Shown here: positions 4,112-18,924 of the stretch, piece by piece
Layout of the letters: every line of letters begins with the position of its first letter
How positions within the stretch are numbered: the first letter of the stretch is position 1
Assembly (NCBI GenBank): GCA_021735655.1
Contig: JAIPGM010000004.1
Coordinates: 32,001 to 96,000, forward strand
Direction of reading: 5' to 3'
Length of the DNA stretch: 64,000 bases
Origin: Candidatus Omnitrophota bacterium
GTDB taxonomy: Bacteria; Omnitrophota; Gorgyraeia; Duberdicusellales; 4484-171
Notes under the pieces: generated by a model
Seen by the model: the letters and a program-made list of their open reading frames with translations, nothing else
Told to the model about the DNA's origin: nothing
Databases searched by the model: none
Position numbers and translations under genes: made by a program

Positions 4112-4140
4112 CCCCCTGACTGTTCTTTTCCGAGATACTC

Positions 4141-4533
4141 TTAATGATGAGCCTCATGTCCGGAAGGCATTTCTTTTTCACTGTTTTTTCTGCCCTGGCC
4201 GGCATCATCTTTACCCATCATCGGACAACTTTTCATCATTTCTTTCATCATTTGCCGCATTCCTTCGCTATCGATGCTTAGCTCAACCTCTTTCACCAAA
4301 TTTAACTTTTTATCATATTTAACAAGCTTATTGCCTAAAAGCAACACTACCCCTCCATCTTCAGTGGCCACTAATTGTTTTTTAACCATCATCTGCATCA
4401 TACCTTTTCCCATCATACTCTTGCTCATCATACCTTTATCCATCATCTCTGAAGAATGTTCTTCAGCAAAAACAGAAAAGTTAACAACAACCAACAGCAA
4501 ACTACCTAAAACAATACCGGTAAACCGCTTCAT
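4141..4533 (-). CDS. Periplasmic methionine-rich (MxxM/MMxxM repeats) putative Cu(I)-binding protein
   Basis: Signal peptide, then [20 protein letters not shown] and [17 protein letters not shown], ending in a His-rich GHEAHH tail. Directly upstream of copA. Confidence 0.5.
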
Positions 4534-4870: not shown

Positions 4871-5461
4871 TTAATCCTTAGTAACCAAAAAAATAGCGTT
4901 TAAAGCGAAAAGGTTGGGGAAAAACTTTACTAACTTCCTTTTGCCAAGATAAAAGGCACTAGAAACCTTTATCTGTTTTTCAACACAGAAGTCTTTAAAG
5001 TCATTAATGCTCAAAAAATGAACATTGGGTGTATCATGCCAATGGTAAGGTAAAGAAGCGGTTATCGGAACTTTTCCTCTAAAGAAAATTCTAAAGCGGG
5101 CCGGAAAATAGGTAAAATTGGGAAAGCCAACAATTACTTCTTTGCCAATCCTCAAAGATTCAGTCACTACGTAGTCGACTTTTTTAATTTCTTGCATACT
5201 TTGATTCAATATCACATAATCAAAAGCTTTAGCCGGATATCCAGAAAGCCCTGTTTCAATGTCGCCATGGAATACACTTAAATCCTTCTCAACACAATTA
5301 TAAATACCTCTCTCATCCAGCTCAATGCCTTGTGCTTTTACTTTCTTTTCTTTGACTAAAAAATGCAAAAGATCTCCATTGCCGCAGCCAAGATCAAGCA
5401 CCTTAGCTCCGGGTTTAACAATCTTATAGATTATCCTATGGTCCAAACGTATCTTATCCAT
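4871..5461 (-). CDS. metW: Methionine biosynthesis protein MetW (SAM-MTase-like partner of MetX)
   Basis: [30 protein letters not shown] are conserved MetW blocks. It overlaps metX by 8 nt. Confidence 0.8.
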
Positions 5462-6596
5462 TTTTCACCAAATCATAGGTCTTTCTCAAAAAATTCTTAA
5501 CCAAACGGGTCTGTTCGTCAACCTCCAGCAAAAAAGCATCGTGGCCATAGGTTGACTCTATTTCACAATAAGTAACATCAACTTGTCGAGTTTTAAGCTG
5601 CTGAATTATCTCTCTAGACTGATAAGGCGGATAGAGCCAGTCTGACTTAAAGGCAATAACTAAGAAGCGAGTATCAATTTTGTTACTCTTCGCCACTAAT
5701 TTCCCTTCTGACAAATCAAGATAGTCCATAGCCTTAGTGATATAAAGGTAGCTGTTAGCATCAAAGCGCTTTACAAAGCTATCTCCTTGATATCTCAAAT
5801 ATCCTTCAACTTCAAAGTCAGTCTTAAAACTAAAGCTATAGTTTTTTTCTTTAAGTTTACGGGAAAACTTCTTCTCCATCGACTCATCGCTCATATAAGT
5901 TATATGACCGATCATCCTAGCAACAGACAAACCCCTCTGAGGCTGAGATTTTCCGTAGTAATTACCCTCAAGCCAATCTGGGTCAGCCATTACCGCCTGC
6001 CTCCCAACCTCATCGAAAGCTATTTGCTGAGGAGAATGCTTTAAGGCCGTAGCTATAGGAATTGCCGATGAGATGACTTCCGGATAAGAAGCTGCCCATT
6101 GTAAGACTTGCATACCACCCATTGATCCGCCAGTAACACAAAGTATCTTCTTAATGCCTAAATAATCTATAAGTCTCTTCTGAGCCGCGACCATATCAGC
6201 AATGGTAATTATCGGAAAATCAATACCATAAGGTTTATTGGTCTTAGGGCTAGTTGAAGAAGGCCCGGTTGAGCCTTTACAGCCACCAAGAACATTAGAG
6301 CAAATTATGAAATACTTATCGGTATCAAAAGCTTTGCCCGGGCCAATCATTATATCCCACCAGCCGGGTTTTTCGTCTCCTTGATGAAAACCAGCCGCAT
6401 GAGCATCACCGCTTAAAGCATGGGCAACTAGAACGGCATTGGTTTTAGCTGAATTTAATTCCCCATAAGTTTCATAGCAAAGAGTAATCGGGCCTAGCTC
6501 TCCCCCATTAGCTAGCTTAAGCTGATCAGACTGATCAGCAAAAGTAAAACTCTGCGGTTCAATAATTCCTAAGCTATTTTTAGCATTTTTGCTCAT
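5454..6596 (-). CDS. metX: Homoserine O-acetyltransferase
   Basis: 380 aa alpha/beta hydrolase with the GGSMGGMQ nucleophile elbow and a typical MetXA N-terminus ([13 protein letters not shown]). Confidence 0.9.
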
Positions 6597-6673
6597 AATT
6601 TACTAGATTTACTACTTAATCTGACTAAAGATTATTAGACCACAAGAGCAAACATTGTTCAAGGCCTTTATTC

Positions 6674-7600
6674 TTAGCCCTTAAACAACCAGGTTGAAAG
6701 ATATCTTTCGCCAGTATCGGGTAGAATTGCCACAATTGTTTTTCCTGAGGAATCTTTACGCTTGGCTACCTCTAGGGCCGCCCACATTGCTGCTCCGCTG
6801 GATATACCGACAAAAATTCCTTCCTTCTTAGCTAAAAGGCCAGCAACTTTACCGGCATCAACATGGGACACCTTTATAATTTCATCGATTATTTCTCGAT
6901 TTAAAACTTCCGGGATAAACCCGGCACCGATTCCCTGAATTTTATGCGAACCTGGTTTTTCACCGGAGATAACCGCTGACTCAACTGGTTCAAGGGCGAT
7001 AACCTTTAAAGATTTATTTTTTTTCTTTAAGGCTTCGCCTACCCCGGTTACTGTGCCTCCAGTACCAACCCCGGAAATAAAAATATCAATTTTTCCGCCA
7101 GTGGCTTCCCAAATTTCTTCGGCTGTTGTAATTCTATGAATCTCGGGATTAGCCGGATTATTAAACTGTTGAGGTACAAAACTGTTGGGAGTGTTTTTTG
7201 CAATTTCTTCTGCCTTTTCAACAGCCCCCTTCATGCCTTTAGCTCCTTCAGTCAATACTAATTCTGCTCCAAAAATCTCAAGAAGTTGCCGACGCTCAAT
7301 ACTCATTGTGTCAGGCATGGTAAGAATTAATCTATAGCCCTTAGCAGCACAAACAAAAGCTAAAGCTATCCCAGTATTTCCGCTAGTCGGTTCTACTATA
7401 ACCGAACCCTTCTTGATTAAACCTTTACTTTCAGCATCCGCAATCATTGCTGCGCCAATTCTGTCTTTAACGCTGGAAAGTGGATTAAAAGATTCTAATT
7501 TTGCCAATACTGTAGCCTGGGTATCTTTTGCCAAACGGTTGATTTTCACCAAAGGAGTATTGCCAATAGTTTTCGTAATATCATCTAATATTTTCGCCAC
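6674..7600 (-). CDS. cysK: Cysteine synthase (O-acetylserine sulfhydrylase)
   Basis: PLP-binding K in [22 protein letters not shown], GxGTGGT loop. 308 aa. Confidence 0.9.
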
Positions 7601-7617
7601 AATAACCTCCTTAGTTA

Positions 7618-9916
<2,299 letters not shown>

Positions 9917-9922
9917 TTTATT

Positions 9923-10777
9923 TTATAAACTTACCCAGTCCTCAGATACAATATTTCCTTTAATGCCTACCACTACACATTTCAACGGTACTTTTCTTTG
10001 GGCTTGGCCCAACCCTTCTTTTACTAAAGCCAAGAGACCACCACAGCAAGGAACCTCCATAATCATTACAGTTAAAGTATTGATTTTTGCCTCATCAGCC
10101 AAAATTTTTATCTTTTCTAAATAAACCTCTTTATTCGTATCTAATTTAGGGCAAGCAATAGCCAAAGATTTCCCAACTAGATATTTGGAATGAAAATTAC
10201 CCAAGGTATAAGCTACGCAATCAGCCGAAAGCAAAACATCTTTTCCCTGAAAATATGGCGCTCGGGGTGATACCAAATGTAATTGAAGCGGCCACTGCCT
10301 TAAAGCTGACGGTTGCTCTCCTGACACTTCTCCTATGTCTGGCTTATCAGAAAAATCCATCGTTCGCATCCCCGGACAACCCTGATGCGCCGCCACAAGC
10401 TTATCTTTAGCAACCGCAAAACCTTCAGGAATTTCTATGCCCTTTGTTTTTAACACTTCTAAGGCCTGTTTAAGGTATCCTCCTTCTCCGTGAACCTTCA
10501 AATGTTCAAGATGAGCTTTAATAGTACCTGCGCCTTGCTTTACAATATTCTCCATTACTTTTCTTTCGTCGTATTTTTCAGCTTCCCGTTCCTCAATGGT
10601 AATTGCATCTACCGGACAACTTCCGATACAAGCCCCTAGGCCATCACAAAAAAGATCACTAATCAAACGAACCTTTCCGTCAATAAGCTGTAAAGCCCCT
10701 TCGGGGCAATTAGGGATACAATCTCCGCAACCAGTGCATTTATCCAAATCAATTTTTATTATTTTTCTTTTTGACAT
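9923..10777 (-). CDS. Fe-S oxidoreductase: N-terminal 2x[4Fe-4S] ferredoxin domain fused to a CCG (HdrB/GlpC-like Cys-rich) domain
   Basis: CTGCGDCIPNCP and CDGLGACIGSCP ferredoxin motifs. C-terminal IACPKLD...about 35 aa...VPCCGG fits the C-x(31-39)-CCG pattern. Confidence 0.55.
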   Translation of the reverse strand: MSKRKIIKIDLDKCTGCGDCIPNCPEGALQLIDGKVRLISDLFCDGLGACIGSCPVDAITIEEREAEKYDERKVMENIVKQGAGTIKAHLEHLKVHGEGGYLKQALEVLKTKGIEIPEGFAVAKDKLVAAHQGCPGMRTMDFSDKPDIGEVSGEQPSALRQWPLQLHLVSPRAPYFQGKDVLLSADCVAYTLGNFHSKYLVGKSLAIACPKLDTNKEVYLEKIKILADEAKINTLTVMIMEVPCCGGLLALVKEGLGQAQRKVPLKCVVVGIKGNIVSEDWVSL

Positions 10778-10794
10778 GACAACCCTTTTCTAGT

Positions 10795-11238
10795 TTAAAT
10801 ATTATACATAAAAACACTCTTAGCATTCTTATCATTATATCGTTTAACTAAAGTTTCAAGAGTCACTGAATCCAAAGCCTTGATAATACTATTTCCGGTC
10901 TCATCCCAAAGTTGACGAACAATTGATACTGAGGCTGGTTGAAGACTATTATCATCTTGCAAATTATCAATTAAAGTTAAGCCACCTTCAAGAATTTCCA
11001 CTATTTCTCTAACCGTTATCTCTCCGGGAGCTTTCGCTAAAGAATAGCCACCGTGGGCTCCACGAAAAGAATTAACTAACCCTTGGGTCCGTAAAGGAAT
11101 AATGATCTGACTAAGGTACTTTTCAGAAATATCTTCCTTCCGGGCAATGTCTTTTAAAAAAACTGGCCCCTTATCGCAGGCCAAGGCTAAGGCCAGCATC
11201 AACCGAGTTCCATATCGACTACGAGCTGAAATTTTCAT
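10795..11238 (-). CDS. Rrf2-family transcriptional regulator (IscR/CymR-like)
   Basis: N-terminal wHTH MKISARSRYGTRLMLALA...; 147 aa. Embedded in the sulfur-assimilation array. Confidence 0.8.
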   Translation of the reverse strand: MKISARSRYGTRLMLALALACDKGPVFLKDIARKEDISEKYLSQIIIPLRTQGLVNSFRGAHGGYSLAKAPGEITVREIVEILEGGLTLIDNLQDDNSLQPASVSIVRQLWDETGNSIIKALDSVTLETLVKRYNDKNAKSVFMYNI

Positions 11239-11284
11239 TTTTTTCTCCTAATTACTAGTAAGATAATCACCACCATAGGTATTA

Positions 11285-12013
11285 TCAAATTCTATTACTG
11301 ACCCCTAATTTGTCAAGGAAGTTATCACGACCGATCTCTTCGATTAAAAGAGCCAATCTTTGCCTGGGTTTAGCATTATCTTTGAAAAAATTAACTACCT
11401 TCTCGATTAAAGAAAGCACCTCATCTTCGGTAAAAATTTTACCTAGCTTGAATCCCAACCGGGGAGTTCTCCCTCCACAGCCACCCAAATAAACAGCATA
11501 GCCAACTATTTTCTCAGAATGATTAAGGTCAATCTCACCGTGTATACCAATTTCAGAACTTTCGGATCGAGTGCAACGATTAGGACAACCGGAAATCGCA
11601 ATTTTAAATTTATGCGGTAGATCCAATCCGCAAACAATATTTAACTCCTTTTCTATTCTTTCAGAAAGAGAAAAGGTATTAACCAAACCTCGCTTACACC
11701 AGTTATTACCCGGACAAACAGTTGTAACTCTAAGTCGCGGGCCAGAAGTTCCAACTTTAATTTCAGCGAGTCTTAGCTCTTTCTCCACTTTCCCAATGTC
11801 TTCGAAACGAATAAAAGGAATTTCTACTGACTGACGAACTGTAAAATGAACAAAACTCCTAGCATACTTTTTAGAAATCTGAGAAAGTTTCTCTAGCTGC
11901 TCAGCTGAAGAGTTACCGGCAAGCATCCTTGTACGTAAAGTAAAATAGCCATCTTCTCGGGCCTTCAAAAACCCTCTCTTTTTTAAAGCATCTAGGTCTA
12001 TCTTATCCTTCAT
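11285..12013 (-). CDS. Small (about 27 kDa) siroheme-[4Fe-4S] sulfite/nitrite reductase-family protein (alSiR-type small sulfite reductase)
   Basis: NIR_SIR ferredoxin-like half-domain plus 4Fe-4S/siroheme Cys motifs CPGNNWC (C-x5-C) and CPNRC (C-x3-C). Only 242 aa. Confidence 0.65.
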   Translation of the reverse strand: MKDKIDLDALKKRGFLKAREDGYFTLRTRMLAGNSSAEQLEKLSQISKKYARSFVHFTVRQSVEIPFIRFEDIGKVEKELRLAEIKVGTSGPRLRVTTVCPGNNWCKRGLVNTFSLSERIEKELNIVCGLDLPHKFKIAISGCPNRCTRSESSEIGIHGEIDLNHSEKIVGYAVYLGGCGGRTPRLGFKLGKIFTEDEVLSLIEKVVNFFKDNAKPRQRLALLIEEIGRDNFLDKLGVSNRI

Positions 12014-13323
12014 TAGCTAACCTCTTTTTTTACAAAACAACTTAAAGTCTTTTTAACCGAAATTATTGATTTAGCAATATCAGCTGAACTATGGGCAAAA
12101 GATAAAAAATTTGCCTCATATTCCGAAGGGGCAAAGTAAACCCCTTGCTCCAAAGCAGACCGATAAAATAAACTAAACAAAGCCCTGTCGGAAAACTTAA
12201 AGCTAAACATTGATCGATATCTACTTATCTTTAAATCTATACCATTAGCAACAGCATATTTACTTATCGAATCACAAAACTGCTTAGCGAACTGGTTAAT
12301 TATTTCGTAATTTTTAGCTTCCTGGTTCAAAATTCTCAAGGTTGCAATGCCGGCTTGCATAACAATTGGATTACCGGAAAAAGTTGACGCCTGATAGACC
12401 TCTCCCTGAGGAGCTAAACAATTCATAATCTTAGAGCTGCCACCGTAGGCACCAATCGGTAAACCACCACCAATAATCTTTCCTAAACAGATTAAATCAG
12501 CATTTATGCCAACAGTTTGTAAAAAAGAACCAAAGTTAAACCTAAAACCGGTAATCACCTCATCGGCGACAAGCAAACTATCATGCTTTTCAGTAATCAA
12601 CCGCAAAGCTTTCAAAAATTCTATATCCGGAAGGGTTACTCCGTAATTTCCACCGACTGGTTCAACCAAAACTGCAGCGATTGACTTACCGTACTGCTTA
12701 AAAATGCTATTCAAGGCTTCGGTATCACCATAATCAACAATTAAAGTATGTTTTATAAACTCAAGCGGTACACCTTTGCTTAAAGGAATCTGTCCGGTTG
12801 CCAAGCCCGAACCAGCTTCAGCCAATAAATAATCGGCATGGCCATGATAAGAGTTTTTGAACTTAACTATTTTATCTCTTTGAGTGTAGCCACGAGCTAG
12901 ACGAACCGCACTCATTAAGCTTTCAGTCCCTGAATTAACAAAACGGATCTTTTCGATAGCCGGGATTGCTGCGTTAATGGTTCGGGCAAGCTCAACTTCA
13001 CTTTGATGAGTTGCGCCAAAACCAAACCCTTTAGTTAATTGATTTCTAACTGCTTCAACCACTTCTGGACGAGCCTGACCCAAAATCATTGCACCAAAAG
13101 ATGAACAATAGTCAATAAACTCTCTACCTTCATAGTCGTATATCTTTGAACCATGGCCTTGCTTTAATAATACCGGTTCACCGCCGACATAGGAAAAACT
13201 CCGTACCGGACTATTCACTCCGCCAACTAAAAACTGTTTGGCTTCTTTAAACAACTGACTGTTCTCTGAGTAATATTCTTTCTTGTTCATATTTTTTTTG
13301 CCAATAAGCAATATCAGCTGCAT
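12013..13323 (-). CDS. hemL: Glutamate-1-semialdehyde 2,1-aminomutase
   Basis: Class-III aminotransferase: VADEVITGFR, GNYGVTLPDIEFL, GTFSGNP. 436 aa (true start may be an internal Met). Confidence 0.9.
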   Translation of the reverse strand: MQLILLIGKKNMNKKEYYSENSQLFKEAKQFLVGGVNSPVRSFSYVGGEPVLLKQGHGSKIYDYEGREFIDYCSSFGAMILGQARPEVVEAVRNQLTKGFGFGATHQSEVELARTINAAIPAIEKIRFVNSGTESLMSAVRLARGYTQRDKIVKFKNSYHGHADYLLAEAGSGLATGQIPLSKGVPLEFIKHTLIVDYGDTEALNSIFKQYGKSIAAVLVEPVGGNYGVTLPDIEFLKALRLITEKHDSLLVADEVITGFRFNFGSFLQTVGINADLICLGKIIGGGLPIGAYGGSSKIMNCLAPQGEVYQASTFSGNPIVMQAGIATLRILNQEAKNYEIINQFAKQFCDSISKYAVANGIDLKISRYRSMFSFKFSDRALFSLFYRSALEQGVYFAPSEYEANFLSFAHSSADIAKSIISVKKTLSCFVKKEVS

Positions 13324-14221
13324 GGTAACTGATTATATAGTCTGCTCCCGCACGCTGGATTGCTCCAATAAGTTCGAACACAAAGTCTTCCTCCGACCAA
13401 AAACCCTGTTGGGCGCCAAGCTTAGCCAAGGCATATTCACCACTTACATTGTAAACAGCTAAAGGAAAATTAAATTGCCTTTTAGCCTGAACAATTATAT
13501 CCAGATAAGCTAAAGCCGGCTTAACCATTACAATGCCTGCTCCTTCTTTGATATCTTGTCTTATCTTCTCTAGGGCAGTTTCTCGATCATGATAATCAAG
13601 TTGATAGGCTCGACGATCTCCAAAACGCGGAGCTGAATCAGCGATTTCACGAAAAGGACCATAAAATTGAGAAGCAAACTTTGCTGAATAAGCCATAATT
13701 TTAACCTGATTATAACCATTTTGATCAAGCTTATTGCGAATTGCCCGAACTTGATTCTCGGCCATTGCTGAAGGACAAACAAAATCAGCGCCAGCTTTTG
13801 CATGTAAAAGTGCCATTGCCGCAAGAGCTTTAAGAGTTAGGGTATTATCAATGGCGACTTGACCCTCCAGAACTATTCCACAATGACCATGTGAACTATA
13901 AGCACACAAGCAAATATCAGTAAAAATAGTAAAACTAGGATAACGAGACTTAATAAAACTTATAGCCTCGCAAAGAAAATAATTACTCTCCCAAGCTGAT
14001 TTTCCTCGCCAACTTTTTTGAACTGGCAGACCAAAAAGTAAAATATTCCTAATCCCAAGATGATCAAGATTAACCAGCTCATCCTTTAAGGCTTCTAAAG
14101 AATATTTAAAAACTCCTGACATTGACTTAACCTCATCGGCCGGACCTTCCTTTTCTTTTACAAACAAAGGATAGATCAACTTTGAAAGCGATAAATTAAA
14201 CTTATTACTTTCTTTTATCAT
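13247..14221 (-). CDS. hemB: Porphobilinogen synthase (delta-aminolevulinate dehydratase)
   Basis: 324 aa. Active-site region ...VKPALAYLDII..., metal-Cys cluster DICLCAYSSHGHCG. Confidence 0.9.
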   Translation of the reverse strand: MIKESNKFNLSLSKLIYPLFVKEKEGPADEVKSMSGVFKYSLEALKDELVNLDHLGIRNILLFGLPVQKSWRGKSAWESNYFLCEAISFIKSRYPSFTIFTDICLCAYSSHGHCGIVLEGQVAIDNTLTLKALAAMALLHAKAGADFVCPSAMAENQVRAIRNKLDQNGYNQVKIMAYSAKFASQFYGPFREIADSAPRFGDRRAYQLDYHDRETALEKIRQDIKEGAGIVMVKPALAYLDIIVQAKRQFNFPLAVYNVSGEYALAKLGAQQGFWSEEDFVFELIGAIQRAGADYIISYHAADIAYWQKKYEQERILLREQSVV

Positions 14222-14954
14222 TTCTAAATTGCCTCACTCTCTCTCTAACTACTTCACCAACGATTAAAACCGCCGGTGGTTTAATTTTCGATTTTTTAGA
14301 TCTTTTTTCAATAGTTCCTATTGTTGCCTGTAAAATCCGCGACTTTTTTGTAGTTGCCCGTTCAATAAAAGCGCAAGGTACTGTATCTTTTCGACCGGAC
14401 TTGCGCAAAGCTTTAACTACATTTCCAATATTAGCTACGGCCATAAGATAAACTAAGGTTTCACAATCAGGGGCATCTATCAAAGCTTTTTTGTCTTTCT
14501 TTCTGCCAGTTAAAATGGCCACCGATGAAATTCGATTTTTTATTGTAAGCGGGATTTCAGCACTTAAAGGCCCTGCCAAAGCTGAAGTTATCCCGGGAAT
14601 AATTTCGTAGTTAACTTTTTTTAAATTAAGATACCTTGCTTCCTCAGCTCCCCGGCTAAAAATAAAAGGGTCCCCCCCTTTAAGCCGAACTACCGTTTTA
14701 AAAGCCAAGGACTTCTTGTATAAAAGCCGATTGATTTGGTTTTGCTCTTTTAAATGTAAACCGTCACTTTTACCAACACAAATCTTCTCACAAGACGGTT
14801 GAACTTCTCTTAATAATTCCGGAGCCGATAAAAAATCATAAAGAACACAATCGGCTGTACGAAGAGCCCTGACTCCCTTTAGGCTAATCAATTCAGGATC
14901 TCCTGGTCCAGCTCCAACTATATATACTTTTCCTTTATTATTGTTAATTGACAT
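14205..14954 (-). CDS. cobA: Uroporphyrinogen-III C-methyltransferase (SUMT; siroheme/precorrin-2 synthesis)
   Basis: VYIVGAGPGDPELISLKG TP-methylase N-terminus. 249 aa, no fused HemD domain. Confidence 0.85.
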   Translation of the reverse strand: MSINNNKGKVYIVGAGPGDPELISLKGVRALRTADCVLYDFLSAPELLREVQPSCEKICVGKSDGLHLKEQNQINRLLYKKSLAFKTVVRLKGGDPFIFSRGAEEARYLNLKKVNYEIIPGITSALAGPLSAEIPLTIKNRISSVAILTGRKKDKKALIDAPDCETLVYLMAVANIGNVVKALRKSGRKDTVPCAFIERATTKKSRILQATIGTIEKRSKKSKIKPPAVLIVGEVVRERVRQFRNDKRK

Positions 14955-15600
14955 TTAGCCTCCGAATGATTTCCAATAAATCATCCCTTTTTCTAAATAG
15001 CTGAATTGCCAAACGGCCCTGTAAATGGTGTGGTTCAATAATACTAAAAGGAATAATTTGTGAAATGCGTTTTTCTAATCCCAAACGGATTAGAGCTGCC
15101 TTAGCCATAACAACTGCGTCATATTTTCCGCAATCAACTTGGGCCAAGCGTTCTTCAATGTCACCACGAATATCCAAAGCAACTAAATCCTCTCGATAAT
15201 TTAAAATTGCTTGTTTGCGATTTTTGCTACTGGTACCTATTCGAGATCCCTTGGGCAGCGTATCTAAGGTAAAGTTGCCACGAACGACCAAACAATCGGC
15301 CCGGCTTATAGATTTGGTTAGCGCCGCCACTATCAAACTTTTAGGGATTTCATCTTCTAGATCCTTTGCACTATGCACAGCAAGATCTATTTCACCACTC
15401 AATAAAGCTGCTTCAATTTCATAGGTAAAAAAATCACTCCCTTCCTTAAAAGCCAAAGGTGTCTTTTTATCTTTATCCCCTTTAGTCTTAATTACAACAA
15501 CCTCAAAGTTAAAAAACGGCAAAAGCTGTTTAACTTCCTCAACCTGTTTAAGCGCTAACGAACTCGGCCGAGTTCCTATTTTGATATAGCGAATCATCAA
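14944..15600 (-). CDS. hemC: Hydroxymethylbilane synthase (porphobilinogen deaminase), domains 1-2 only
   Basis: IKIGTRPSSLALKQ N-terminus, ends ...QGRLAIQLFRKRDD. 218 aa versus about 300 aa typical; the C-terminal domain 3 with the cofactor Cys is absent. Confidence 0.75.
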   Translation of the reverse strand: MMIRYIKIGTRPSSLALKQVEEVKQLLPFFNFEVVVIKTKGDKDKKTPLAFKEGSDFFTYEIEAALLSGEIDLAVHSAKDLEDEIPKSLIVAALTKSISRADCLVVRGNFTLDTLPKGSRIGTSSKNRKQAILNYREDLVALDIRGDIEERLAQVDCGKYDAVVMAKAALIRLGLEKRISQIIPFSIIEPHHLQGRLAIQLFRKRDDLLEIIRRLNVN

Positions 15601-16561
15601 TCTGCCTCCTAATAGCTAACACCTGTTCTTCTATGGCCGCTTCAGCTAATTTTACATAGCTGCTCATAGATTGATTATGTCTTTTGCAAAGATCACTTAA
15701 CGAATCAAGGTTTTTTAAAAAAACGCCTGGAATTTTTGTCAACTCAAAATCTATATCTCGCGGTAAAGCTAAATCATAAACATAAAGTGGCTTTTTACGC
15801 AACCGAATAACCTTGACTAATAACTTGCTACTCAGCACCTGGTGAGGGCTTGAAGTTGCACTCACTAAACAATCTGCCCCTAAAAGCTCTTCTGATAAAT
15901 TATCTAGTAGAAAAACTTTGGCAGAATTTTTCCTAGCTAGACTTTGAGCCTTTTTTATCTTCTTTTTAGCGAAAAAATATAGTTCGAGATCAGTAAATTT
16001 ACTTTCTGAAAACATCTTAGCTATTTTTCCAGTACCGACAATAAGCACTTTTTTCTTACTAGCTAATCCGGTATTAAAAATAAGATCTTCTAAAACAATC
16101 TCGGAAATATTGTTTTCGTTACCGAATAAATCTAGCTGTTGACGTAAATCGTAGCTCGAAGTTAAAACTCCTCGCCAAAGATTCTTAATTGGCCAAGAAA
16201 AACTATCCCTCCTAACCCAAGAATCTAATTGCTCAAGAATTTGCCTTTCTCCGACAATTTGTGACTCAAGACCGCAAGCCAACCTCAAAGCTTTACGGAT
16301 AACACCCTGTGTATCCTGTATAAAGTGGGCTTTTTCAAAAATCGGATGGAACTGGCTCTTAAAATTTGCAATATCTTTTATTAATAGCTCTGTGTTTTCA
16401 GCAAGACCATAAATTTCTACTCGATTGCAAGTAAATAGCACCTCGGATTCAAAAACTGATTCTTTCCAGAACCGTACAATCTGATCACGCCGCAGGCAAG
16501 CATGTTCCCTTAGCGATAAAGGTGTATTCTTATAGTCTATTGCGATAGAGTAAAAATTCAT
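15548..16561 (-). CDS. hemA: Glutamyl-tRNA reductase
   Basis: FTCNRVEIY catalytic Cys block, GERQILEQ, NADP-binding VLIVGTGKIAKM. 337 aa (short C-terminus). Confidence 0.8.
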   Translation of the reverse strand: MNFYSIAIDYKNTPLSLREHACLRRDQIVRFWKESVFESEVLFTCNRVEIYGLAENTELLIKDIANFKSQFHPIFEKAHFIQDTQGVIRKALRLACGLESQIVGERQILEQLDSWVRRDSFSWPIKNLWRGVLTSSYDLRQQLDLFGNENNISEIVLEDLIFNTGLASKKKVLIVGTGKIAKMFSESKFTDLELYFFAKKKIKKAQSLARKNSAKVFLLDNLSEELLGADCLVSATSSPHQVLSSKLLVKVIRLRKKPLYVYDLALPRDIDFELTKIPGVFLKNLDSLSDLCKRHNQSMSSYVKLAEAAIEEQVLAIRRQIDDSLYQNRNSAEFVSA

Positions 16562-17003
16562 CCCACTTCTCCTTGAGATAATTTTTTAAATCTCGGGATA
16601 AAACCGGATCCTTGCCATCAGTATACACTGCGATTAAAGCTTTTTCCGTTCGCAGAACAGCTGGTGAAATAAAATCACTCAAAAGAGGTTTGTCTACAAC
16701 ATTAACTGAAATGCCCTTGACTTTAGCCCAATTGCTCACCTGTTCATTTAGGAAAGAATCATCGGTTGCCGAGATAACTAAAGTTGCTCCGAAGATGTCT
16801 GATTCTTTAGCTTTGCGCTCCAACCATTCAATAGCCCCCTGCTTGGCTAACTCTCTTAACTCTACTGTGACTTTAGGCGCAATCAGAGTAATTCTGGCTT
16901 CAGCCAAAAGCAAAGCCTCAATTTTACGCTGGCCTACTTTACCACCGCCAACCACGATGGCTTTCTTGTTTTTAATTTTAAGCGCAACTGGTAAATAATT
17001 CAT
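16530..17003 (-). CDS. sirC: Precorrin-2 dehydrogenase / sirohydrochlorin ferrochelatase-type Rossmann domain (SirC/CysG N-terminal domain-like)
   Basis: 157 aa; AIVVGGGKVGQRKIEALLLAEARITLIAP NAD-binding fold typical of the siroheme synthase N-terminal domain. Confidence 0.65.
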   Translation of the reverse strand: MNYLPVALKIKNKKAIVVGGGKVGQRKIEALLLAEARITLIAPKVTVELRELAKQGAIEWLERKAKESDIFGATLVISATDDSFLNEQVSNWAKVKGISVNVVDKPLLSDFISPAVLRTEKALIAVYTDGKDPVLSRDLKNYLKEKWDEFLLYRNRL

Positions 17004-17015
17004 AAACTCTTTAAC

Positions 17016-17741
17016 TTATATCCCATCTCCGTCTAAATTAGACTTTAACGGCCGAGTGTGGATTCCACACTCACCACCGCATTTGCTAGTTCCAATCCAA
17101 CGTCCGGCCCGCTCATTGTCGTCATTAGTGATTCTGGTGCAAGGAGAGCAACCTAAAGAACGATAACCCTCCTTATAAAGAGGGTTCACCTTAACTTCAT
17201 ATAAGGCTAAATACTGCCAAACTTCTCTTTCTTTCCAAATGAGAATCGGATTAAGTTTTATCAATCCTTTATCGCGTTCCTCAACTTCCTTGTAATCGGT
17301 CCGGGTTCGACCCTCAGTACAACGCAATCCAGTAACCCAACAGGTAACTTTCATCTCATCCACCGCTCTCTTCACCGGCTCAACCTTTAAAACCTCACAA
17401 CATTGATCAGGATCAACATTGTATAATTCGGGCGATATCTCTGAATCATTCTTATATACTGCCAATTCCGGATAACGGACAACTTCTTGATTCATAAACT
17501 CAACTGTTTCTTTGGGCTTGAACCGAGTGGTTACAATAAACCCTTTTATTTTTGGGTCAACCTTCTTTGCCAAATCCCAAACCACAACTGAATCCTTACC
17601 TAAACTGTTAGCAACAACCAGGCCATCACCATATTTATCATATGCTTCTCTTATAAGTTGTAAGGATCGATCCACCTTTTGCTTAAAATTTAAAGTTTCA
17701 ACCAATACTTTCAAATCGTCTTGTGTGCCTAACAAACTCAT
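17016..17741 (-). CDS. cysH: Adenylyl-sulfate (APS) reductase, thioredoxin-dependent, Fe-S type
   Basis: PAPS_reduct fold (SLGKDSVVVWDL). CC...CxxC Fe-S cysteines (DQCCEV, GCSPCT). C-terminal catalytic KCGGECGIH like the ECGLH motif. Confidence 0.8.
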   Translation of the reverse strand: MSLLGTQDDLKVLVETLNFKQKVDRSLQLIREAYDKYGDGLVVANSLGKDSVVVWDLAKKVDPKIKGFIVTTRFKPKETVEFMNQEVVRYPELAVYKNDSEISPELYNVDPDQCCEVLKVEPVKRAVDEMKVTCWVTGLRCTEGRTRTDYKEVEERDKGLIKLNPILIWKEREVWQYLALYEVKVNPLYKEGYRSLGCSPCTRITNDDNERAGRWIGTSKCGGECGIHTRPLKSNLDGDGI

Positions 17742-17788: not shown

Positions 17789-18010
17789 TTAGATTTGATA
17801 CTCTATTTCCTTAATTCTTCCGAATTTTACCTTATTCCAAATTCGTTCATGTATATAGTAAAGGAATATCTTTACTGTATTTGCGGCAATGCCCACTACC
17901 AATGACTCTTTAACGTCTTTGGTATAAATATAGATAGCAATTATCGTAGTCAAAAAAGCAATTACCCGCCAAGTTAAAGATTTGACTAAAGATCGTTTTG
18001 GATGTTCCAT
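17789..18010 (-). CDS. Small 2-TM membrane protein (DUF2061-like)
   Basis: 73 aa, SLTWRVIAFLTTIIAIYIY... Directly upstream of cysH on the same strand. Confidence 0.45.
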   Translation of the reverse strand: MEHPKRSLVKSLTWRVIAFLTTIIAIYIYTKDVKESLVVGIAANTVKIFLYYIHERIWNKVKFGRIKEIEYQI

Positions 18011-18210
18011 TTACTCACTAAATAGTATAAAAATGTATTTTATACACTACCTATTCTATCAAAATACTAGCTAATACTTTCAAAAAATATAGGCGCACAA
18101 ACGCCTTTTTTAATCACTATCAATGCAATCTCTTTGATAGAGATTAAAATATACCATATTATTAAGAATTGTCAAGGATAAATTTTAAGTTTTTTAAACC
18201 TTGTTTCTAG

Positions 18211-18238
18211 TTGCTAAGTAGCCCAAATATGGTATTAT
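18211..18238 (+). promoter_or_regulatory. Candidate sigma70-type promoter for the thi operon (TTGCTA-16 bp-TATTAT)
   Basis: TTGCTA at 18211-18216 and TATTAT at 18233-18238, about 33 nt upstream of the thiE ATG at 18271. Confidence 0.3.
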
Positions 18239-18270
18239 TAAGGATAATAATCAAAATTAACCCCTGGGGA

Positions 18271-18924
18271 ATGAAGAGCATTAGCAATTACAACTTATAT
18301 TTAGTTACTGGTGAGCAACGCTCAGCTACAAAAAAAACCCTAGAAGTAGTGAGGTTAGCCATTAACGGCGGGGCAAATATTATCCAGCTACGTGATAAAA
18401 ATATGGCCCGGTCTGAGCTAGTCAGCTTAGGAAAAAAACTCTCGACATTAGCTAAGAGTAAGAATATAGTATTTATTGTTAACGACGACCCGGATTTAGC
18501 CGCTGAGCTAGATGCTGACGGAGTGCACCTAGGACAAACTGACATAGAAAAATACTCGGTAGAAAAAACAAGAAAACTAATCGGTAGGAATAAAATTATT
18601 GGCCTATCAACCCATTCCCTAGAACAAATAGAACAAGCTAATAAGCTTGATATTAATTACATTGCCTTTGGACCATTATTTGAAACTAAAACTAAAAACT
18701 ACTCAATTGGAACTAGAGATTTAACTAAAGCTTTATCGTTATCAAAATTTCCTTTAGTTTGTATTGGTGGTATAAACTCAAATAATATCGAAGAAGTTTT
18801 AAAGCTGGGCGCAACTAATATTGCTATGATTCGAGAAATTACTGAAAGTCAAGATATAGAAAAAAAAGTGAAACAGCTAAAAAGCCTGATAACCAAATAT
18901 AAAAAAAATGCAGATAACAATTAA
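18271..18924 (+). CDS. thiE: Thiamine-phosphate synthase
   Basis: Start chosen at the internal ATG (MKSISNYNLYLVTGEQ...), preceded by a GGGGAA RBS; the track ORF starts earlier at 18211. TMP-TENI fold blocks GANIIQLRDK and VHLGQTD. Confidence 0.85.
   Translation: MKSISNYNLYLVTGEQRSATKKTLEVVRLAINGGANIIQLRDKNMARSELVSLGKKLSTLAKSKNIVFIVNDDPDLAAELDADGVHLGQTDIEKYSVEKTRKLIGRNKIIGLSTHSLEQIEQANKLDINYIAFGPLFETKTKNYSIGTRDLTKALSLSKFPLVCIGGINSNNIEEVLKLGATNIAMIREITESQDIEKKVKQLKSLITKYKKNADNN

What the first reader, a model, noticed from the sequence alone, without database searches (positions are those of the whole stretch)
4871..17741. About 13 kb single-strand super-operon for sulfate-derived sulfide and Cys/Met synthesis with embedded siroheme pathway
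Fifteen genes lie in transcription order with short gaps or overlaps: cysH(APS-type)-sirC-hemA-hemC-cobA-hemB-hemL-small SiR-rrf2-Fd/CCG-mnmA-like-metY-cysK-metX-metW.

The cofactor (siroheme) pathway is encoded in the middle of the operon that needs it, and an Rrf2 regulator sits inside the array rather than upstream.

No sulfate adenylyltransferase (sat/cysDN) or APS kinase is present in the window, so activation of sulfate must be encoded elsewhere.
Basis: partly seen in the sequence, partly recalled or inferred. Interest (0 to 1): 0.5.

Follow-up and report, generated by a model that had tools for sequence, protein, structure and literature searches.

The report
Sulfur-assimilation gene array with built-in siroheme genes
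An uncultured Omnitrophota bacterium keeps the genes that turn activated sulfate into cysteine and homocysteine, plus most genes for the siroheme cofactor this needs, in one 13-kb same-strand array that probably runs as two repressor-controlled units; this is a tidy new arrangement of well-known enzymes with a few odd parts.

Summary
Sixteen genes, not fifteen, lie head to tail on the minus strand (18010 to 4871), with junctions from a 50-nt overlap to a 77-nt gap. The same order recurs in another Omnitrophota contig, and its first half in a third.

The gene calls are right, and the window holds no sat, cysDN or cysC.

The interpretation needs four corrections.
- **Siroheme route incomplete.** There is no hemD and no separate ferrochelatase. 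HemC lacks its third domain, which carries the cofactor cysteine; this is true of all 120 closest homologues.
- **Probably two modules.** DUF2061-to-SiR and rrf2-to-metW look like separate units. A promoter-like site sits before rrf2, and relatives carry the second module alone or swap metY-metX-metW for HcyBio-NIL.
- **Rrf2 regulator.** It belongs to a family linked to metY and cysK across many metagenomes. I derived a 28-bp palindromic operator from other loci. Two of the window's three matches fall in the leader before DUF2061-cysH. The window's regulator has lost the Fe-S cysteines most relatives keep.
- **Two relabelled genes.** "Fd/CCG" looks like an FrdX-type protein. "mnmA-like" is a ThiI-type PP-loop enzyme fused to NFACT-R_2.

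Verdict: a new variant of a known kind, of moderate interest.

The parts
18148..18175 (-). Promoter P1: TTGACA, 16-nt spacer, TATATT with an upstream TG. It heads the array.
   Evidence: 11/12 consensus match. The same element is present in L082 and L085.
18115..18142 (.). Operator O1, a 28-bp palindrome (CTATCAA-N10-TTGATAG core). It starts 5 nt after the P1 -10 box. It also overlaps the predicted -35 of the divergent thi promoter.
   Evidence: 14.4 bits with a matrix trained on other loci. Only 3 hits of at least 10 bits occur in 64 kb, against 0.32 expected. The orthologous L082 site scores 19.4.
18081..18113 (-). Either a GC hairpin plus T-run, or a second promoter P2 (TTAAAA-16-TATATT). 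Its role is unresolved.
   Evidence: Both the terminator-like and the promoter-like match come. The element is conserved in L082 and absent in L085. The RNA fold z-score of -4.0 is confounded by the palindromic operators.
18045..18072 (.). Operator O2, the second 28-bp palindrome in the leader.
   Evidence: 16.8 bits, the best hit in the window. The orthologous L082 site scores 22.8.
17789..18010 (-). DUF2061 small membrane protein (73 aa).
   Evidence: ORF. PF09834 annotation on the identical contig. Conserved in L082 and L085. Also found next to metY in L118.
17016..17741 (-). CysH, a thioredoxin-type sulfonucleotide reductase with Fe-S cysteines. It probably uses APS and makes sulfite.
   Evidence: PF01507 at E 2.6e-40; NF002537 at 171.6 bits, above its cutoff of 154. 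CC, CxxC and ECGIH motifs are in the translation.
16530..17003 (-). Short SirC/CysG-N-like precorrin-2 dehydrogenase (157 aa). It may also act as the ferrochelatase.
   Evidence: TIGR01470 at 123 bits. It aligns to Salmonella CysG residues 1-144 and to B. megaterium SirC (3DFZ).
15548..16561 (-). HemA, glutamyl-tRNA reductase (337 aa). It gives no hit to a dimerisation domain, and its 3' end overlaps hemC by 50 nt.
   Evidence: GlutR_N + Shikimate_DH hits; it matches positions 4-330 of the 416-position TIGR01035 profile. The overlap is conserved in L082 and L085.
14944..15597 (-). HemC, hydroxymethylbilane synthase with domains 1-2 only (217 aa).
   Evidence: TIGR00212 at 202 bits, covering positions 1-215 of 293. 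It aligns to E. coli HemC residues 4-208 of 313. All 120 closest homologues are 195-232 aa and lack PF03900.
14205..14954 (-). CobA/SirA, uroporphyrinogen-III C-methyltransferase (SUMT). It is not fused to HemD.
   Evidence: NF004790 at 253 bits; TIGR01469 at 250 bits.
13247..14221 (-). HemB, porphobilinogen synthase.
   Evidence: NF006762 at 379 bits.
12013..13323 (-). HemL, glutamate-1-semialdehyde aminomutase. The start is either ATG 13323 or TTG 13254.
   Evidence: NF000818 at 521 bits. Alternative start from the gene call on the identical contig.
11285..12013 (-). Small single-module siroheme/[4Fe-4S] sulfite reductase (242 aa). It reduces sulfite to sulfide.
   Evidence: NIR_SIR_ferr + NIR_SIR. 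The CX5C and CX3C motifs are present. Its closest solved relatives are the C-terminal siroheme half of F420-dependent sulfite reductase and NirA.
11289..11316 (-). Internal promoter-like site (TTGACA-16-TAGAAT) inside the 3' end of the SiR gene, ahead of rrf2.
   Evidence: 11/12 match. The same element is in L082. L085 has its own promoter in a 115-nt spacer at this junction.
11253..11280 (.). Degenerate remnant of the operator before rrf2.
   Evidence: It scores only -2.2 bits in the window. It is positionally orthologous to a 13.3-bit site in L082, and L085 has a 26.3-bit site at the same junction.
10795..11238 (-). Rrf2-family repressor, CymR-like, without Fe-S ligand cysteines.
   Evidence: PF02082 at E 9e-34; CymR model at 135 bits, below its cutoff of 195. 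Its best solved relatives include B. subtilis and S. aureus CymR.
9923..10777 (-). 2x[4Fe-4S] ferredoxin domain + AF_0155 domain protein (FrdX-like). It is a presumed electron carrier.
   Evidence: Fer4 hits. PF27217 annotation. 62-80% identity across many phyla with invariant Cys and His residues. Its neighbours elsewhere are Rrf2, Hcp, cupin and Crp/Fnr.
8927..9916 (-). ThiI-like PP-loop ATPase + NFACT-R_2 domain. It is a predicted sulfide-dependent thiolation enzyme, probably for tRNA s4U.
   Evidence: ThiI and NFACT-R_2 hits. The SGGLDS, CxxC and PCPAGGC motifs are present. The family was described in PMC4075521. It lies next to the Rrf2 gene in L084, L088, L092, L093, L116 and L137.
7618..8913 (-). 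MetY, O-acetylhomoserine sulfhydrylase (homocysteine synthase).
   Evidence: NF006096 at 734 bits, above its cutoff of 726.
6674..7600 (-). CysK, O-acetylserine sulfhydrylase.
   Evidence: TIGR01139 at 467 bits.
5454..6596 (-). MetX, homoserine O-acetyltransferase.
   Evidence: NF001209 at 523 bits.
4871..5461 (-). MetW, partner protein of MetX. This is the last gene of the array.
   Evidence: TIGR02081 at 222 bits.

Best explanation
This is a conserved sulfur-assimilation locus of an Omnitrophota lineage, built from two co-directional modules placed back to back.

**Module 1** (DUF2061-cysH-sirC-hemA-hemC-cobA-hemB-hemL-SiR) reduces APS to sulfite with CysH and sulfite to sulfide with a small siroheme sulfite reductase. 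It also carries the glutamate-to-sirohydrochlorin genes that supply that enzyme's cofactor.

**Module 2** (rrf2-frdX-like-thiI/NFACT-metY-cysK-metX-metW) fixes the sulfide into cysteine (CysK) and homocysteine (MetX/MetW make O-acetylhomoserine, MetY adds sulfide). It also carries an Fe-S electron-transfer protein, a probably sulfide-dependent thiolation enzyme, and the regulator.

**Regulation.** The Rrf2 protein is inferred to be a repressor. It would bind 28-bp palindromes (consensus TACTACtAATtcAATTGaaTTaGTAGTA). Two of these sit just downstream of the promoter elements in the DUF2061-cysH leader. In relatives, one also sits in front of rrf2 itself. Sulfite/sulfide production and its own module would therefore be switched together.

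**What is shown:** gene identities, order, conservation, and the motif with its positions.

**What is inferred:** that this Rrf2 binds the motif, that binding represses, the signal sensed, APS as the substrate, and the number of transcripts.

Sulfate uptake and activation, HemD, cysE and methionine synthase must be encoded elsewhere.
For: - **Gene identities.**
- **Tight spacing.** Junctions run from -50 to +77 nt.
- **Conservation of the array.** The whole array is conserved in L082 and module 1 in L085.
- **Module 2 is separable.**
  - The complete genome CP070807 has rrf2-Fd-PPloop-cysK-HcyBio-NIL without module 1.
  - L085 replaces metY-metX-metW with HcyBio-NIL, 77% identical to the L084 HcyBio protein.
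- **Promoter-like sites before rrf2.** They appear in the window and L082. L085 has a promoter and operator in a 115-nt spacer.
- **Regulator family.** Of 80 metagenome loci with this Rrf2 type, about 35 have metY and/or cysK adjacent, in several arrangements.
- **Operator.** The motif was learned from 28 of 68 non-redundant rrf2 upstream regions, leaving out the window and its syntenic relatives.
  - Across 611 kb of loci, 47 of 58 unique sites of at least 15 bits lie within 300 nt upstream of rrf2 (26), metY (16), cysK (2) or DUF2061 (3).
  - This includes sites upstream of metY in metY-cysK-rrf2 loci, which were not in the training set.
  - In the window, 3 hits of at least 10 bits occur against 0.32 expected, and 2 of them fall within the 130-bp leader.
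- **Operator in relatives.** L082 has leader sites of 22.8 and 19.4 bits; L085 has one of 25.7 bits.
- **Enzyme motifs.** The CysH Fe-S motifs and the SiR CX5C/CX3C motifs are present.
- **No competing pathways.** No B12 or Ahb genes are in the window.
Against: - The window's own operator before rrf2 is degenerate at -2.2 bits. In this genome the second module may depend partly or wholly on read-through from P1.
- No clear intrinsic terminator separates the modules or follows metW.
- The window's internal promoter lies in coding sequence, so its conservation in L082 could reflect protein constraint.
- The siroheme route lacks HemD and an identifiable ferrochelatase, and HemC lacks the domain that normally carries its cofactor. 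Function of the block is therefore assumed, not shown.
- The Rrf2 scores below NCBIfam's CymR cutoff (135 against 195).
- Binding of this protein to the motif is inferred from co-occurrence only.
- One equally strong motif hit (29981-30008, 16.4 bits) lies in a pilus operon and is probably chance.
Confidence: 0.7

Rival explanations
1. There is a single 16-gene super-operon. One transcript from P1 covers DUF2061 through metW, and the Rrf2 gene is truly internal.
For: All junctions are 77 nt or less, and many overlap. No convincing terminator lies between SiR and rrf2. The window's rrf2-proximal operator is degenerate, while the two good operators sit only at the head of the array. The full order is conserved in L082.
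Against: An 11/12 promoter match lies 50 nt before rrf2. L082 has a 164-nt gap and L085 a 115-nt gap at this junction, with operators of 13.3 and 26.3 bits. Module 2 stands alone in L084. Its gene content is exchanged between relatives.
Confidence: 0.25
2. The hem-cobA-sirC block serves another tetrapyrrole, either anaerobic B12 or siroheme-dependent alternative heme. It is only incidentally next to the sulfur genes.
For: Sirohydrochlorin is also the branch point for anaerobic cobalamin and for the Ahb heme route. hem + SUMT + precorrin-2 dehydrogenase clusters serve heme synthesis in archaea (PMC3004389). No dedicated siroheme ferrochelatase is present in the array.
Against: The window has no cbi/cob, ahb/nirDHJ or heme-late genes. 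The block is wedged, with overlapping reading frames, between cysH and the only siroheme enzyme. That arrangement is conserved in L082 and L085. A more distant lineage (L135) again places sirC-hemA-hemC-cobA beside cysH, cysK and SiR.
Confidence: 0.08
3. The FrdX-like Fe-S protein and the ThiI/NFACT-R_2 ATPase are core parts of sulfur incorporation. For example, they might activate and deliver sulfide as a protein-bound persulfide or thiocarboxylate to CysK, MetY or HcyBio, rather than acting as an electron carrier and a tRNA-modifying enzyme.
For: The triad rrf2-Fd-PPloop sits directly before sulfide-fixing enzymes in three different configurations: the window and L082, L084, and L085. rrf2-PPloop adjacency recurs without the Fd in L088, L092, L093, L116 and L137, again with cysK or metY nearby. 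The PP-loop protein keeps three cluster-type cysteines.
Against: - CysK and MetY use free sulfide directly in characterised systems.
- The PP-loop family carries an RNA-binding-type NFACT-R domain, and its distribution is mutually exclusive with canonical ThiI, which points to tRNA s4U (PMC4075521).
- Outside this lineage the Fd family sits mostly with hcp and nitrosative-stress regulators, not with sulfur genes.
- A frdX knock-down in C. difficile gives NO sensitivity (PMC12915319).
Confidence: 0.12
4. CysH and the small SiR act mainly in sulfite or nitrite detoxification rather than sulfate assimilation. The organism may not activate sulfate at all.
For: No sulfate transporter, Sat/CysDN or CysC is in the window. 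Small siroheme reductases can also reduce nitrite (general knowledge). The Fd family is tied to nitrosative stress elsewhere.
Against: A CysH-type reductase has no role without APS or PAPS. The products feed directly into adjacent CysK and MetY, and the locus carries an operator shared with metY/cysK operons in many other organisms.
Confidence: 0.07

Closest known systems
Bacillus subtilis cysH operon (cysH-cysP-sat-cysC-ylnD-ylnE-ylnF). Operon composition is from my own knowledge; the roles of YlnD and YlnF in siroheme synthesis are cited in PMC1266029.
   Same: An Fe-S-type CysH heads a sulfur-regulated operon that also carries siroheme-synthesis genes (SUMT and a short, roughly 160-aa precorrin-2 dehydrogenase). 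The cofactor genes sit with the pathway that uses them.
   Different: The Bacillus operon includes sulfate uptake and activation (cysP, sat, cysC) and a ferrochelatase (ylnE). It has no hemA/L/B/C trunk, no sulfite reductase and no Cys/Hcy synthases. The Omnitrophota array is the reverse on all these points.
Corynebacterium glutamicum fpr2-cysIXHDNYZ cluster (PMC1266029)
   Same: One sulfur-regulated cluster joins an APS-type CysH, a sulfite reductase, a putative siroheme ferrochelatase (CysY) and small Fe-S/electron-donor proteins (CysX, Fpr2). A dedicated repressor controls it.
   Different: It contains cysDN and a large CysI-type reductase. It has no tetrapyrrole trunk genes, and its regulator (McbR, TetR family) is unrelated and encoded elsewhere.
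CymR, the Rrf2-family master repressor of cysteine metabolism in Bacillus and Staphylococcus (PDB 2Y75, 3T8R; summarised in PMC3828012)
   Same: It is a winged-helix Rrf2 repressor without Fe-S ligand cysteines. It is genetically linked to cysK, and CymR is the best-scoring NCBIfam model (E 1.5e-39). The window protein scores 94 and 83 bits against the solved CymR chains.
   Different: - It scores below the CymR equivalog cutoff (135 against 195).
- Most members of its own family carry a C-x6-C-x5-C Fe-S motif, which this clade has lost.
- I did not compare the operator found here with the published CymR box.
- Dependence on a CysK complex is untested.
- The regulon here includes cysH, siroheme genes and SiR.
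hem + SUMT + precorrin-2 dehydrogenase gene clusters. Archaeal examples are in PMC3004389. The clostridial sirC-hemA-hemC-cobA/hemD-hemB-hemL order is from my own memory.
   Same: The same gene set, and (for the clostridial type) the same order: sirC-hemA-hemC-cobA-hemB-hemL.
   Different: Those clusters include hemD, often fused to cobA, and a three-domain HemC. They are not inserted between cysH and a sulfite reductase.
Low-molecular-weight assimilatory-type sulfite reductases, and the C-terminal half of F420-dependent sulfite reductase Fsr (PDB 7NP8; PMC3448663)
   Same: A single NIR_SIR_ferr + NIR_SIR module of about 240 aa with CX5C...CX3C siroheme/[4Fe-4S] ligands. The best solved match is the Fsr C-terminal half (E 5e-26 to 5e-27).
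   Different: There is no fused F420H2-dehydrogenase or ferredoxin domain. The electron donor is unknown; the adjacent FrdX-like protein is only a candidate.
FrdX of hcp-frdX operons (PMC1274295, PMC12915319) and the ThiI+DUF814 predicted tRNA 4-thiouridine synthase (PMC4075521)
   Same: The Fd protein's family sits beside hcp in 22 of 80 genome loci and beside Crp/Fnr regulators in 16 of 80. This is the pattern described for FrdX. The PP-loop protein has the ThiI-like core plus NFACT-R_2 and the conserved CxxC.
   Different: No hcp is present here, and no TusA gene lies next to the PP-loop gene. Both instead sit between a sulfur regulator and Cys/Hcy synthases. I did not compare the sequence directly with a named FrdX.

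Membership tests
Fe-S (APS-type) CysH sulfonucleotide reductase | PAPS_reduct catalytic domain | tested here: met
   PF01507 at E 2.6e-40; NF002537 at 171.6 bits, above its cutoff of 154.
Fe-S (APS-type) CysH sulfonucleotide reductase | Two cysteine pairs (CC...CxxC) that bind the [4Fe-4S] cluster, plus the C-terminal ECGLH catalytic cysteine | tested here: met
   'DQCCEV', 'GCSPCT' and 'GECGIH' are in the translation. The link between these motifs and APS preference comes from the literature as I recall it.
Fe-S (APS-type) CysH sulfonucleotide reductase | APS rather than PAPS as substrate | not testable with these tools
   TIGR02055 (APS_reductase) scores 137.5, below its cutoff of 235. The call rests on the motifs only.
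Complete siroheme pathway (glutamyl-tRNA to siroheme) | HemA, HemL, HemB, SUMT (CobA/SirA) and precorrin-2 dehydrogenase (SirC) | tested here: met
   All five have strong family hits.
Complete siroheme pathway (glutamyl-tRNA to siroheme) | Uroporphyrinogen-III synthase (HemD) | tested here: not met
   No HEM4/HemD hit in the array or in any other ORF of at least 120 aa in the window. CobA is not fused to HemD. The gene may lie elsewhere in the genome.
Complete siroheme pathway (glutamyl-tRNA to siroheme) | Sirohydrochlorin ferrochelatase (SirB/CbiX, or a bifunctional Met8p/CysG-N type) | tested here: inconclusive
   No CbiX/SirB is in the window. The 157-aa SirC-like protein has Asp at the position of CysG Ser128. 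From memory, that position corresponds to the catalytic Asp141 of bifunctional Met8p. Chelatase activity is untested.
Canonical hydroxymethylbilane synthase (HemC) | Domains 1 and 2 with the catalytic Asp and the substrate-binding Arg residues | tested here: met
   PF01379 at E 5e-59. 'HSAKDL' and R/S residues corresponding to E. coli substrate-binding positions (assignments from memory, e.g. R131, R149) are invariant in 15 homologues.
Canonical hydroxymethylbilane synthase (HemC) | Domain 3 carrying the cysteine that holds the dipyrromethane cofactor (E. coli Cys242) | tested here: not met
   The protein ends at the equivalent of E. coli residue ~210-220, short of domain 3. There is no PF03900 hit. 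All 120 closest homologues lack it too.
CymR (Bacillus-type cysteine-metabolism repressor) | Rrf2 winged-helix fold without Fe-S ligand cysteines | tested here: met
   PF02082 at E 9e-34. The only cysteine is at position 21, and there is none after residue 80.
CymR (Bacillus-type cysteine-metabolism repressor) | Score above the NCBIfam equivalog cutoff | tested here: not met
   NF047409 scores 135.3 bits against a cutoff of 195.
CymR (Bacillus-type cysteine-metabolism repressor) | Genetic link to cysK and other sulfur genes, and a palindromic operator at their promoters | tested here: met
   About 35 of 80 family loci have metY and/or cysK adjacent. 47 of 58 strong operator sites lie upstream of rrf2, metY, cysK or DUF2061.
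CymR (Bacillus-type cysteine-metabolism repressor) | DNA binding stabilised by CysK and released by O-acetylserine | not testable with these tools
   This mechanism is known for B. subtilis (summarised in PMC3828012). There are no data for this protein.
Low-molecular-weight siroheme sulfite reductase | Single NIR_SIR_ferr + NIR_SIR module with CX5C...CX3C ligands, about 220-240 aa | tested here: met
   Pfam hits. 'CPGNNWC' and 'CPNRC' are in the 242-aa translation.
FrdX (Hcp-associated ferredoxin-like protein) | N-terminal 2x[4Fe-4S] domain plus a conserved C-terminal Cys-rich domain, encoded beside hcp | tested here: inconclusive
   The domain architecture matches, and the family neighbours hcp in 22 of 80 loci. 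There is no hcp here, and I made no direct alignment to a named FrdX.
ThiI+DUF814 (NFACT-R_2) PP-loop family | SGGxDS PP-loop, ThiI-type CxxC and internal Cys, and a C-terminal NFACT-R_2 domain | tested here: met
   NFACT-R_2 at E 1.3e-17; ThiI at E 6.5e-11. 'SGGLDS', 'CIDC' and 'PCPAGGC' are present.
ThiI+DUF814 (NFACT-R_2) PP-loop family | TusA-domain gene as conserved neighbour (PMC4075521) | tested here: not met
   There is no TusA/SirA-like gene in the array or the window. The neighbours here are Rrf2, the Fd protein and Cys/Hcy synthases.
Single operon (one transcription unit) | Co-directional genes with short or overlapping junctions | tested here: met
   Junctions run from -50 to +77 nt.
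Single operon (one transcription unit) | No internal promoter; one transcript | tested here: inconclusive
   A strong promoter-like site lies before rrf2, and relatives have a promoter plus operator there. There are no transcript data.

The most novel reading that the evidence does not exclude
Omnitrophota may make uroporphyrinogen III and siroheme by a non-canonical route. Their HemC is a stable two-domain enzyme that has lost the whole domain carrying the cofactor cysteine, and it has gained a nearly invariant cysteine at the domain 1/2 hinge (the position of E. coli Ala107). No HemD is recognisable near it. This could mean a relocated cofactor anchor, a cofactor-free mechanism, or an unrecognised partner that supplies cyclisation.

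Separately, the rrf2-FrdX-ThiI/NFACT triad may be a dedicated sulfide-handling module for Cys and Hcy synthesis, governed by an Rrf2 sensor that was originally Fe-S based.
Probability: 0.15. Interest if true: 0.7.

Novelty: new variant of a known kind. Interest (0 to 1): 0.4.

Why it matters
**Metabolism of an uncultured phylum.** The locus gives a concrete, testable picture of how one lineage makes its sulfur amino acids. That lineage seems to keep tetrapyrrole synthesis mainly, perhaps only, to supply siroheme for sulfite reduction.

**Regulation.** The comparative work yields a candidate regulon and a 28-bp operator for a widespread family of Rrf2 regulators. This family is mostly of the Fe-S type and is tied to metY and cysK in anaerobes. 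I have not seen it described.

**HemC.** An entire clade has a HemC without its cofactor-bearing domain. If that enzyme is active, it challenges the textbook mechanism of hydroxymethylbilane synthase.

**Limits.** The array itself is a rearrangement of well-known enzymes and would not change how sulfur assimilation is understood.

Tried and rejected
1. **Riboswitch or known RNA in the leader.** Rfam found nothing in the window at gathering thresholds except one tRNA. The leader gave only chance-level hits with E of at least 0.29. There is no SAM or T-box element.
2. **Attenuator reading of the leader hairpin plus T-run.** It is conserved in L082 but absent in L085. The low folding energy (z -4.0 and -3.5) is expected from two related palindromic operators. 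I left this unresolved.
3. **Function of the AF_0155 domain by structure.** Sequence search matched only the ferredoxin part to any PDB entry. The AlphaFold model from a 14-sequence alignment was poor (pLDDT 62). Foldseek against the PDB gave nothing significant; the best was beta-carbonic-anhydrase-like at E of about 0.01 and TM of about 0.25.
4. **Fd protein as a dedicated partner of the small SiR.** Among 80 genome loci with this Fd family, none had an SiR neighbour outside this lineage.
5. **Hidden HemD, Ahb or CbiX among the window's unannotated ORFs.** NCBIfam found nothing.
6. **The third strong operator hit (29981-30008).** It lies inside a type IV pilus operon and I treat it as chance.
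7. **Comparison with the published CymR box.** The Even et al. 2006 paper was not available.
8. **Literature on natural HemC lacking domain 3.** One search returned only canonical-enzyme and porphyria papers.

Full report
**1. What is in the sequence**

The region is a run of ORFs on the minus strand. In order these are cysH, a 157-aa SirC/CysG-N-like NAD-binding protein, hemA, hemC, cobA (SUMT), hemB, hemL, a 242-aa single-module siroheme sulfite reductase, an Rrf2 regulator, a 2x[4Fe-4S] protein, a PP-loop ATPase, metY, cysK, metX and metW.

With the most likely start codons, the junctions are +12, -32, -50, -11, -17, -8, -1, +46, +17, +6, +13, +17, +77 and +7 (or -8) nt.

One gene was missed. 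A 73-aa ORF at 17789-18010(-), 47 nt upstream of cysH, is a DUF2061 membrane protein. The array therefore has 16 genes and starts at 18010.

The exact contig is a metagenome assembly. Its proteins are named in NCBI as Candidatus Omnitrophica.

**2. It is a conserved arrangement, not a chance run**

A 502-kb contig (L082) carries the same 16 genes in the same order at 56-91% amino-acid identity. It also has the same divergent thiE-thiS-thiG-thiH operon upstream.

A third contig (L085) carries DUF2061-cysH-sirC-hemA-hemC-cobA-hemB-hemL-SiR-rrf2-Fd-PPloop-cysK. It then continues with a HcyBio (PF01837-type) gene and a small NIL-type gene instead of metY-metX-metW.

A complete 1.8-Mb Omnitrophota genome (L084) has only rrf2-Fd-PPloop-cysK-HcyBio-NIL, with unrelated genes upstream.

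The locus therefore consists of two modules. The first (DUF2061 to SiR) is kept as a block. The second starts with rrf2 and ends with whichever enzymes fix sulfide into cysteine and homocysteine.

**3. One operon or two**

A strong promoter match (TTGACA-16-TATATT with an extended TG) lies at 18175-18148. A second 11/12 match (TTGACA-16-TAGAAT) lies at 11316-11289, inside the last codons of the SiR gene and 50 nt before rrf2. L082 has the same element.

In L085 the SiR-rrf2 spacer is 115 nt. It contains its own TTGACA-16-TACAAT followed by a strong operator.

I found no convincing terminator at this junction or after metW. Read-through is therefore likely, and the two readings are not exclusive. 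The regulator is best described as the first gene of the second unit.

**4. The regulator and its operator**

The window's Rrf2 has no cysteine after residue 80. CymR is its best NCBIfam model at 135 bits, below the cutoff of 195. It also matches the solved B. subtilis and S. aureus CymR chains.

A scan of metagenome contigs with this protein returned 80 loci at 44-68% identity. About 35 of them have metY and/or cysK next to the regulator, in several layouts:
- metY-cysK-rrf2
- rrf2-metY-cysK-metX-metW
- divergent metY and rrf2

Five loci have the PP-loop gene directly after rrf2.

I built a 28-bp palindromic motif from 200-nt regions upstream of rrf2 in 68 non-redundant loci, leaving out the window, L082, L083 and L085. 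Twenty-eight of these contributed sites. The consensus is TACTACtAATtcAATTGaaTTaGTAGTA.

Across all 83 loci (611 kb), 47 of 58 distinct sites of at least 15 bits lie within 300 nt upstream of rrf2, metY, cysK or DUF2061. This includes sites upstream of metY in metY-cysK-rrf2 operons, which were not in the training regions.

In the 64-kb window only three positions reach 10 bits, against 0.32 expected from Markov-simulated sequence:
- 18115-18142 (14.4 bits), starting 5 nt after the P1 -10 box
- 18045-18072 (16.8 bits), also in the leader
- 29981-30008 (16.4 bits), inside a pilus operon and probably chance

L082 has leader sites of 22.8 and 19.4 bits and a 13.3-bit site before rrf2. L085 has 25.7 bits in the leader and 26.3 bits before rrf2. 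The window's site before rrf2 has decayed to -2.2 bits.

There is an Rrf2-type operator upstream of cysH, and in relatives also upstream of rrf2. There is none directly before the SiR gene.

Most members of this regulator family carry a C-x6-C-x5-C motif of the kind that binds Fe-S clusters in IscR and NsrR. The window's clade has lost all three cysteines. How it senses sulfur status is therefore open. A CysK/O-acetylserine mechanism, as in B. subtilis CymR (summarised in PMC3828012), is one possibility.

**5. The embedded cofactor pathway**

The block sirC-hemA-hemC-cobA-hemB-hemL covers glutamyl-tRNA to sirohydrochlorin, with two holes.

First, there is no HemD. CobA is not fused to it, and no ORF in the window matches it.

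Second, there is no SirB/CbiX ferrochelatase. The short SirC-like protein aligns to CysG residues 1-144 and has Asp at the position of CysG Ser128. From memory, that position corresponds to the catalytic Asp141 of the bifunctional yeast Met8p, so it may do both steps. This is an inference.

No cbi/cob or ahb genes are in the window. Together with the conserved wedging between cysH and the siroheme enzyme, this favours siroheme over B12 or alternative heme.

**6. An odd HemC**

HemC is 217 aa. It matches positions 1-215 of the 293-position HemC model and residues 4-208 of the 313-residue E. coli enzyme. It lacks domain 3, which in solved enzymes carries the cysteine that holds the dipyrromethane cofactor (role of E. 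coli Cys242 from my own knowledge).

This is not an assembly error. All 120 closest homologues are 195-232 aa and carry only the N-terminal Pfam domain.

The catalytic 'HSAKDL' and the arginines are invariant across 15 homologues. A cysteine at the position of E. coli Ala107 is present in 14 of the 15.

NCBIfam also has a 241-position HemC model, PRK01066, which this protein matches at 184 bits. My recollection that this is the chlamydial enzyme is unverified.

I could not test whether these short enzymes work.

**7. The two less familiar genes**

The 284-aa 'Fd/CCG' protein has an N-terminal two-cluster ferredoxin domain and a C-terminal AF_0155 domain (PF27217, from precomputed annotation). 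It gave no CCG-domain hit.

Its family is strikingly conserved, at 62-80% identity from Omnitrophota to Altiarchaeota, with invariant Cys and His residues.

In 80 genome loci from many anaerobe phyla, its commonest neighbours are:

| Neighbour | Loci |
|---|---|
| Rrf2 gene, mostly directly upstream | 29 (24 directly upstream) |
| Hybrid-cluster protein (hcp) | 22 |
| Small cupin | 20 |
| Divergent Crp/Fnr regulator | 16 |

That is the context described for FrdX (PMC1274295). A frdX knock-down in C. difficile causes NO sensitivity (PMC12915319). Sulfur genes are only occasional neighbours.

The 329-aa 'mnmA-like' protein is the ThiI-like PP-loop + NFACT-R_2 (DUF814) family. Burroughs and Aravind predicted this family to be an alternative tRNA 4-thiouridine synthase (PMC4075521). 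It keeps SGGLDS, CxxC and a third cysteine motif. This is compatible with a cluster-dependent enzyme that uses sulfide directly (inference).

Its repeated placement right after the sulfur regulator suggests it is co-regulated with sulfide supply.

**8. What is missing**

The window has no sulfate transporter, Sat/CysDN, CysC, CysE or methionine synthase. The array covers APS to sulfite to sulfide to cysteine and homocysteine. It does not cover the whole route from sulfate to methionine.

CysH has the CC, CxxC and ECGIH motifs of the Fe-S class. An APS kinase may therefore not be needed.

**9. Comparison and verdict**

Placing siroheme genes in sulfur-assimilation operons is known. Examples are the B. 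subtilis cysH operon with ylnDEF (from my own knowledge; YlnD/YlnF roles in PMC1266029) and CysY in the C. glutamicum cluster (PMC1266029). hem-SUMT-dehydrogenase clusters are also known (PMC3004389).

Three things are new here:
- the complete C5 trunk sits inside the sulfur locus
- it is juxtaposed with a regulator-led Cys/Hcy module
- several parts are unusual: the two-domain HemC, the absence of HemD, the cluster-less derivative of an Fe-S Rrf2 family, and the FrdX-like and ThiI/NFACT genes in a sulfur context

I rate it a new variant of a known kind, with interest 0.4.

Noticed in passing
window 14944-15597 (-); homologues P0121-P0240: HemC lacks domain 3, the domain that carries the cofactor cysteine. 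So do all 120 closest homologues (195-232 aa, PF01379 only). A cysteine at the position of E. coli Ala107 is present in 14 of 15 aligned sequences. No hemD lies nearby.
   Followed up: partly
loci L084-L164 (Rrf2 homologues); window 10795-11238: Most metY/cysK-linked members of this Rrf2 family carry a C-x6-C-x5-C motif typical of Fe-S-binding Rrf2 proteins. The window, L082/L083 and L085 have no cysteine there, so this clade has lost the ligands.
   Followed up: partly
window 18211-21559 (+): A divergent thiE-thiS-thiG-thiH-thiF thiazole/thiamine operon shares the 200-bp control region with the array. Operator O1 (18115-18142) overlaps its predicted -35 box (TTGATA at 18134). The same repressor might therefore also control this sulfur-requiring pathway. 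The divergent layout is conserved in L082 and L085.
   Followed up: partly
L084 13154-14517; L085 13236-14860: Close relatives replace metY-metX-metW with HcyBio (PF01837) plus a NIL-domain gene. From memory, this pair resembles the genes used for homocysteine synthesis in methanogens. The homocysteine step of the module is therefore interchangeable.
   Followed up: partly
window 18081-18113 (-): The leader has a GC hairpin flanked by an A-run and a T-run, identical in stem between the window and L082 but absent in L085. It could be an attenuator/terminator, or simply a second promoter (TTAAAA-16-TATATT).
   Followed up: partly
window 29981-30008: A 16.4-bit match to the Rrf2 operator lies inside a type IV pilus gene cluster, just upstream of a T2SSB-like ORF. 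It is probably chance.
   Followed up: partly
window 15548-15600 and 16530-16561: The 3' end of hemA overlaps hemC by 50 nt, and sirC overlaps hemA by 32 nt. The long hemA/hemC overlap is conserved in relatives (59 nt in L082, 71 nt in L085). HemA (337 aa) also gives no hit to the C-terminal dimerisation domain.
   Followed up: partly
window 254-4533 (-), and L001/L082 downstream flanks: A copper-handling cluster follows the array. It includes a small unknown ORF pair and a P-type Cu ATPase with two HMA domains. The longer source contig L001 and L082 add YHS, cupredoxin, DUF1573/rhodanese and CsoR-like genes. It has its own promoter-like site at 4814-4785.
   Followed up: no
window 26750-44500 (-): A large type IV pilus/T2SS cluster. 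It has two tandem PilB/GspE-type ATPases with MshEN domains, a stand-alone MshEN-domain ORF (40620-41060), a GGDEF/GAF protein, PilMNO, a secretin and an 848-aa STT3-like oligosaccharyltransferase.
   Followed up: no
window 9923-10777 (-); alignment A1: The AF_0155 domain of the ferredoxin-like protein is 62-80% identical across bacterial and archaeal phyla. It has invariant residues C134, C187, C209, C244-C245 and H89/H92/H96/H167/H196, and no solved homologue. This is an unusually conserved protein of unknown chemistry.
   Followed up: partly
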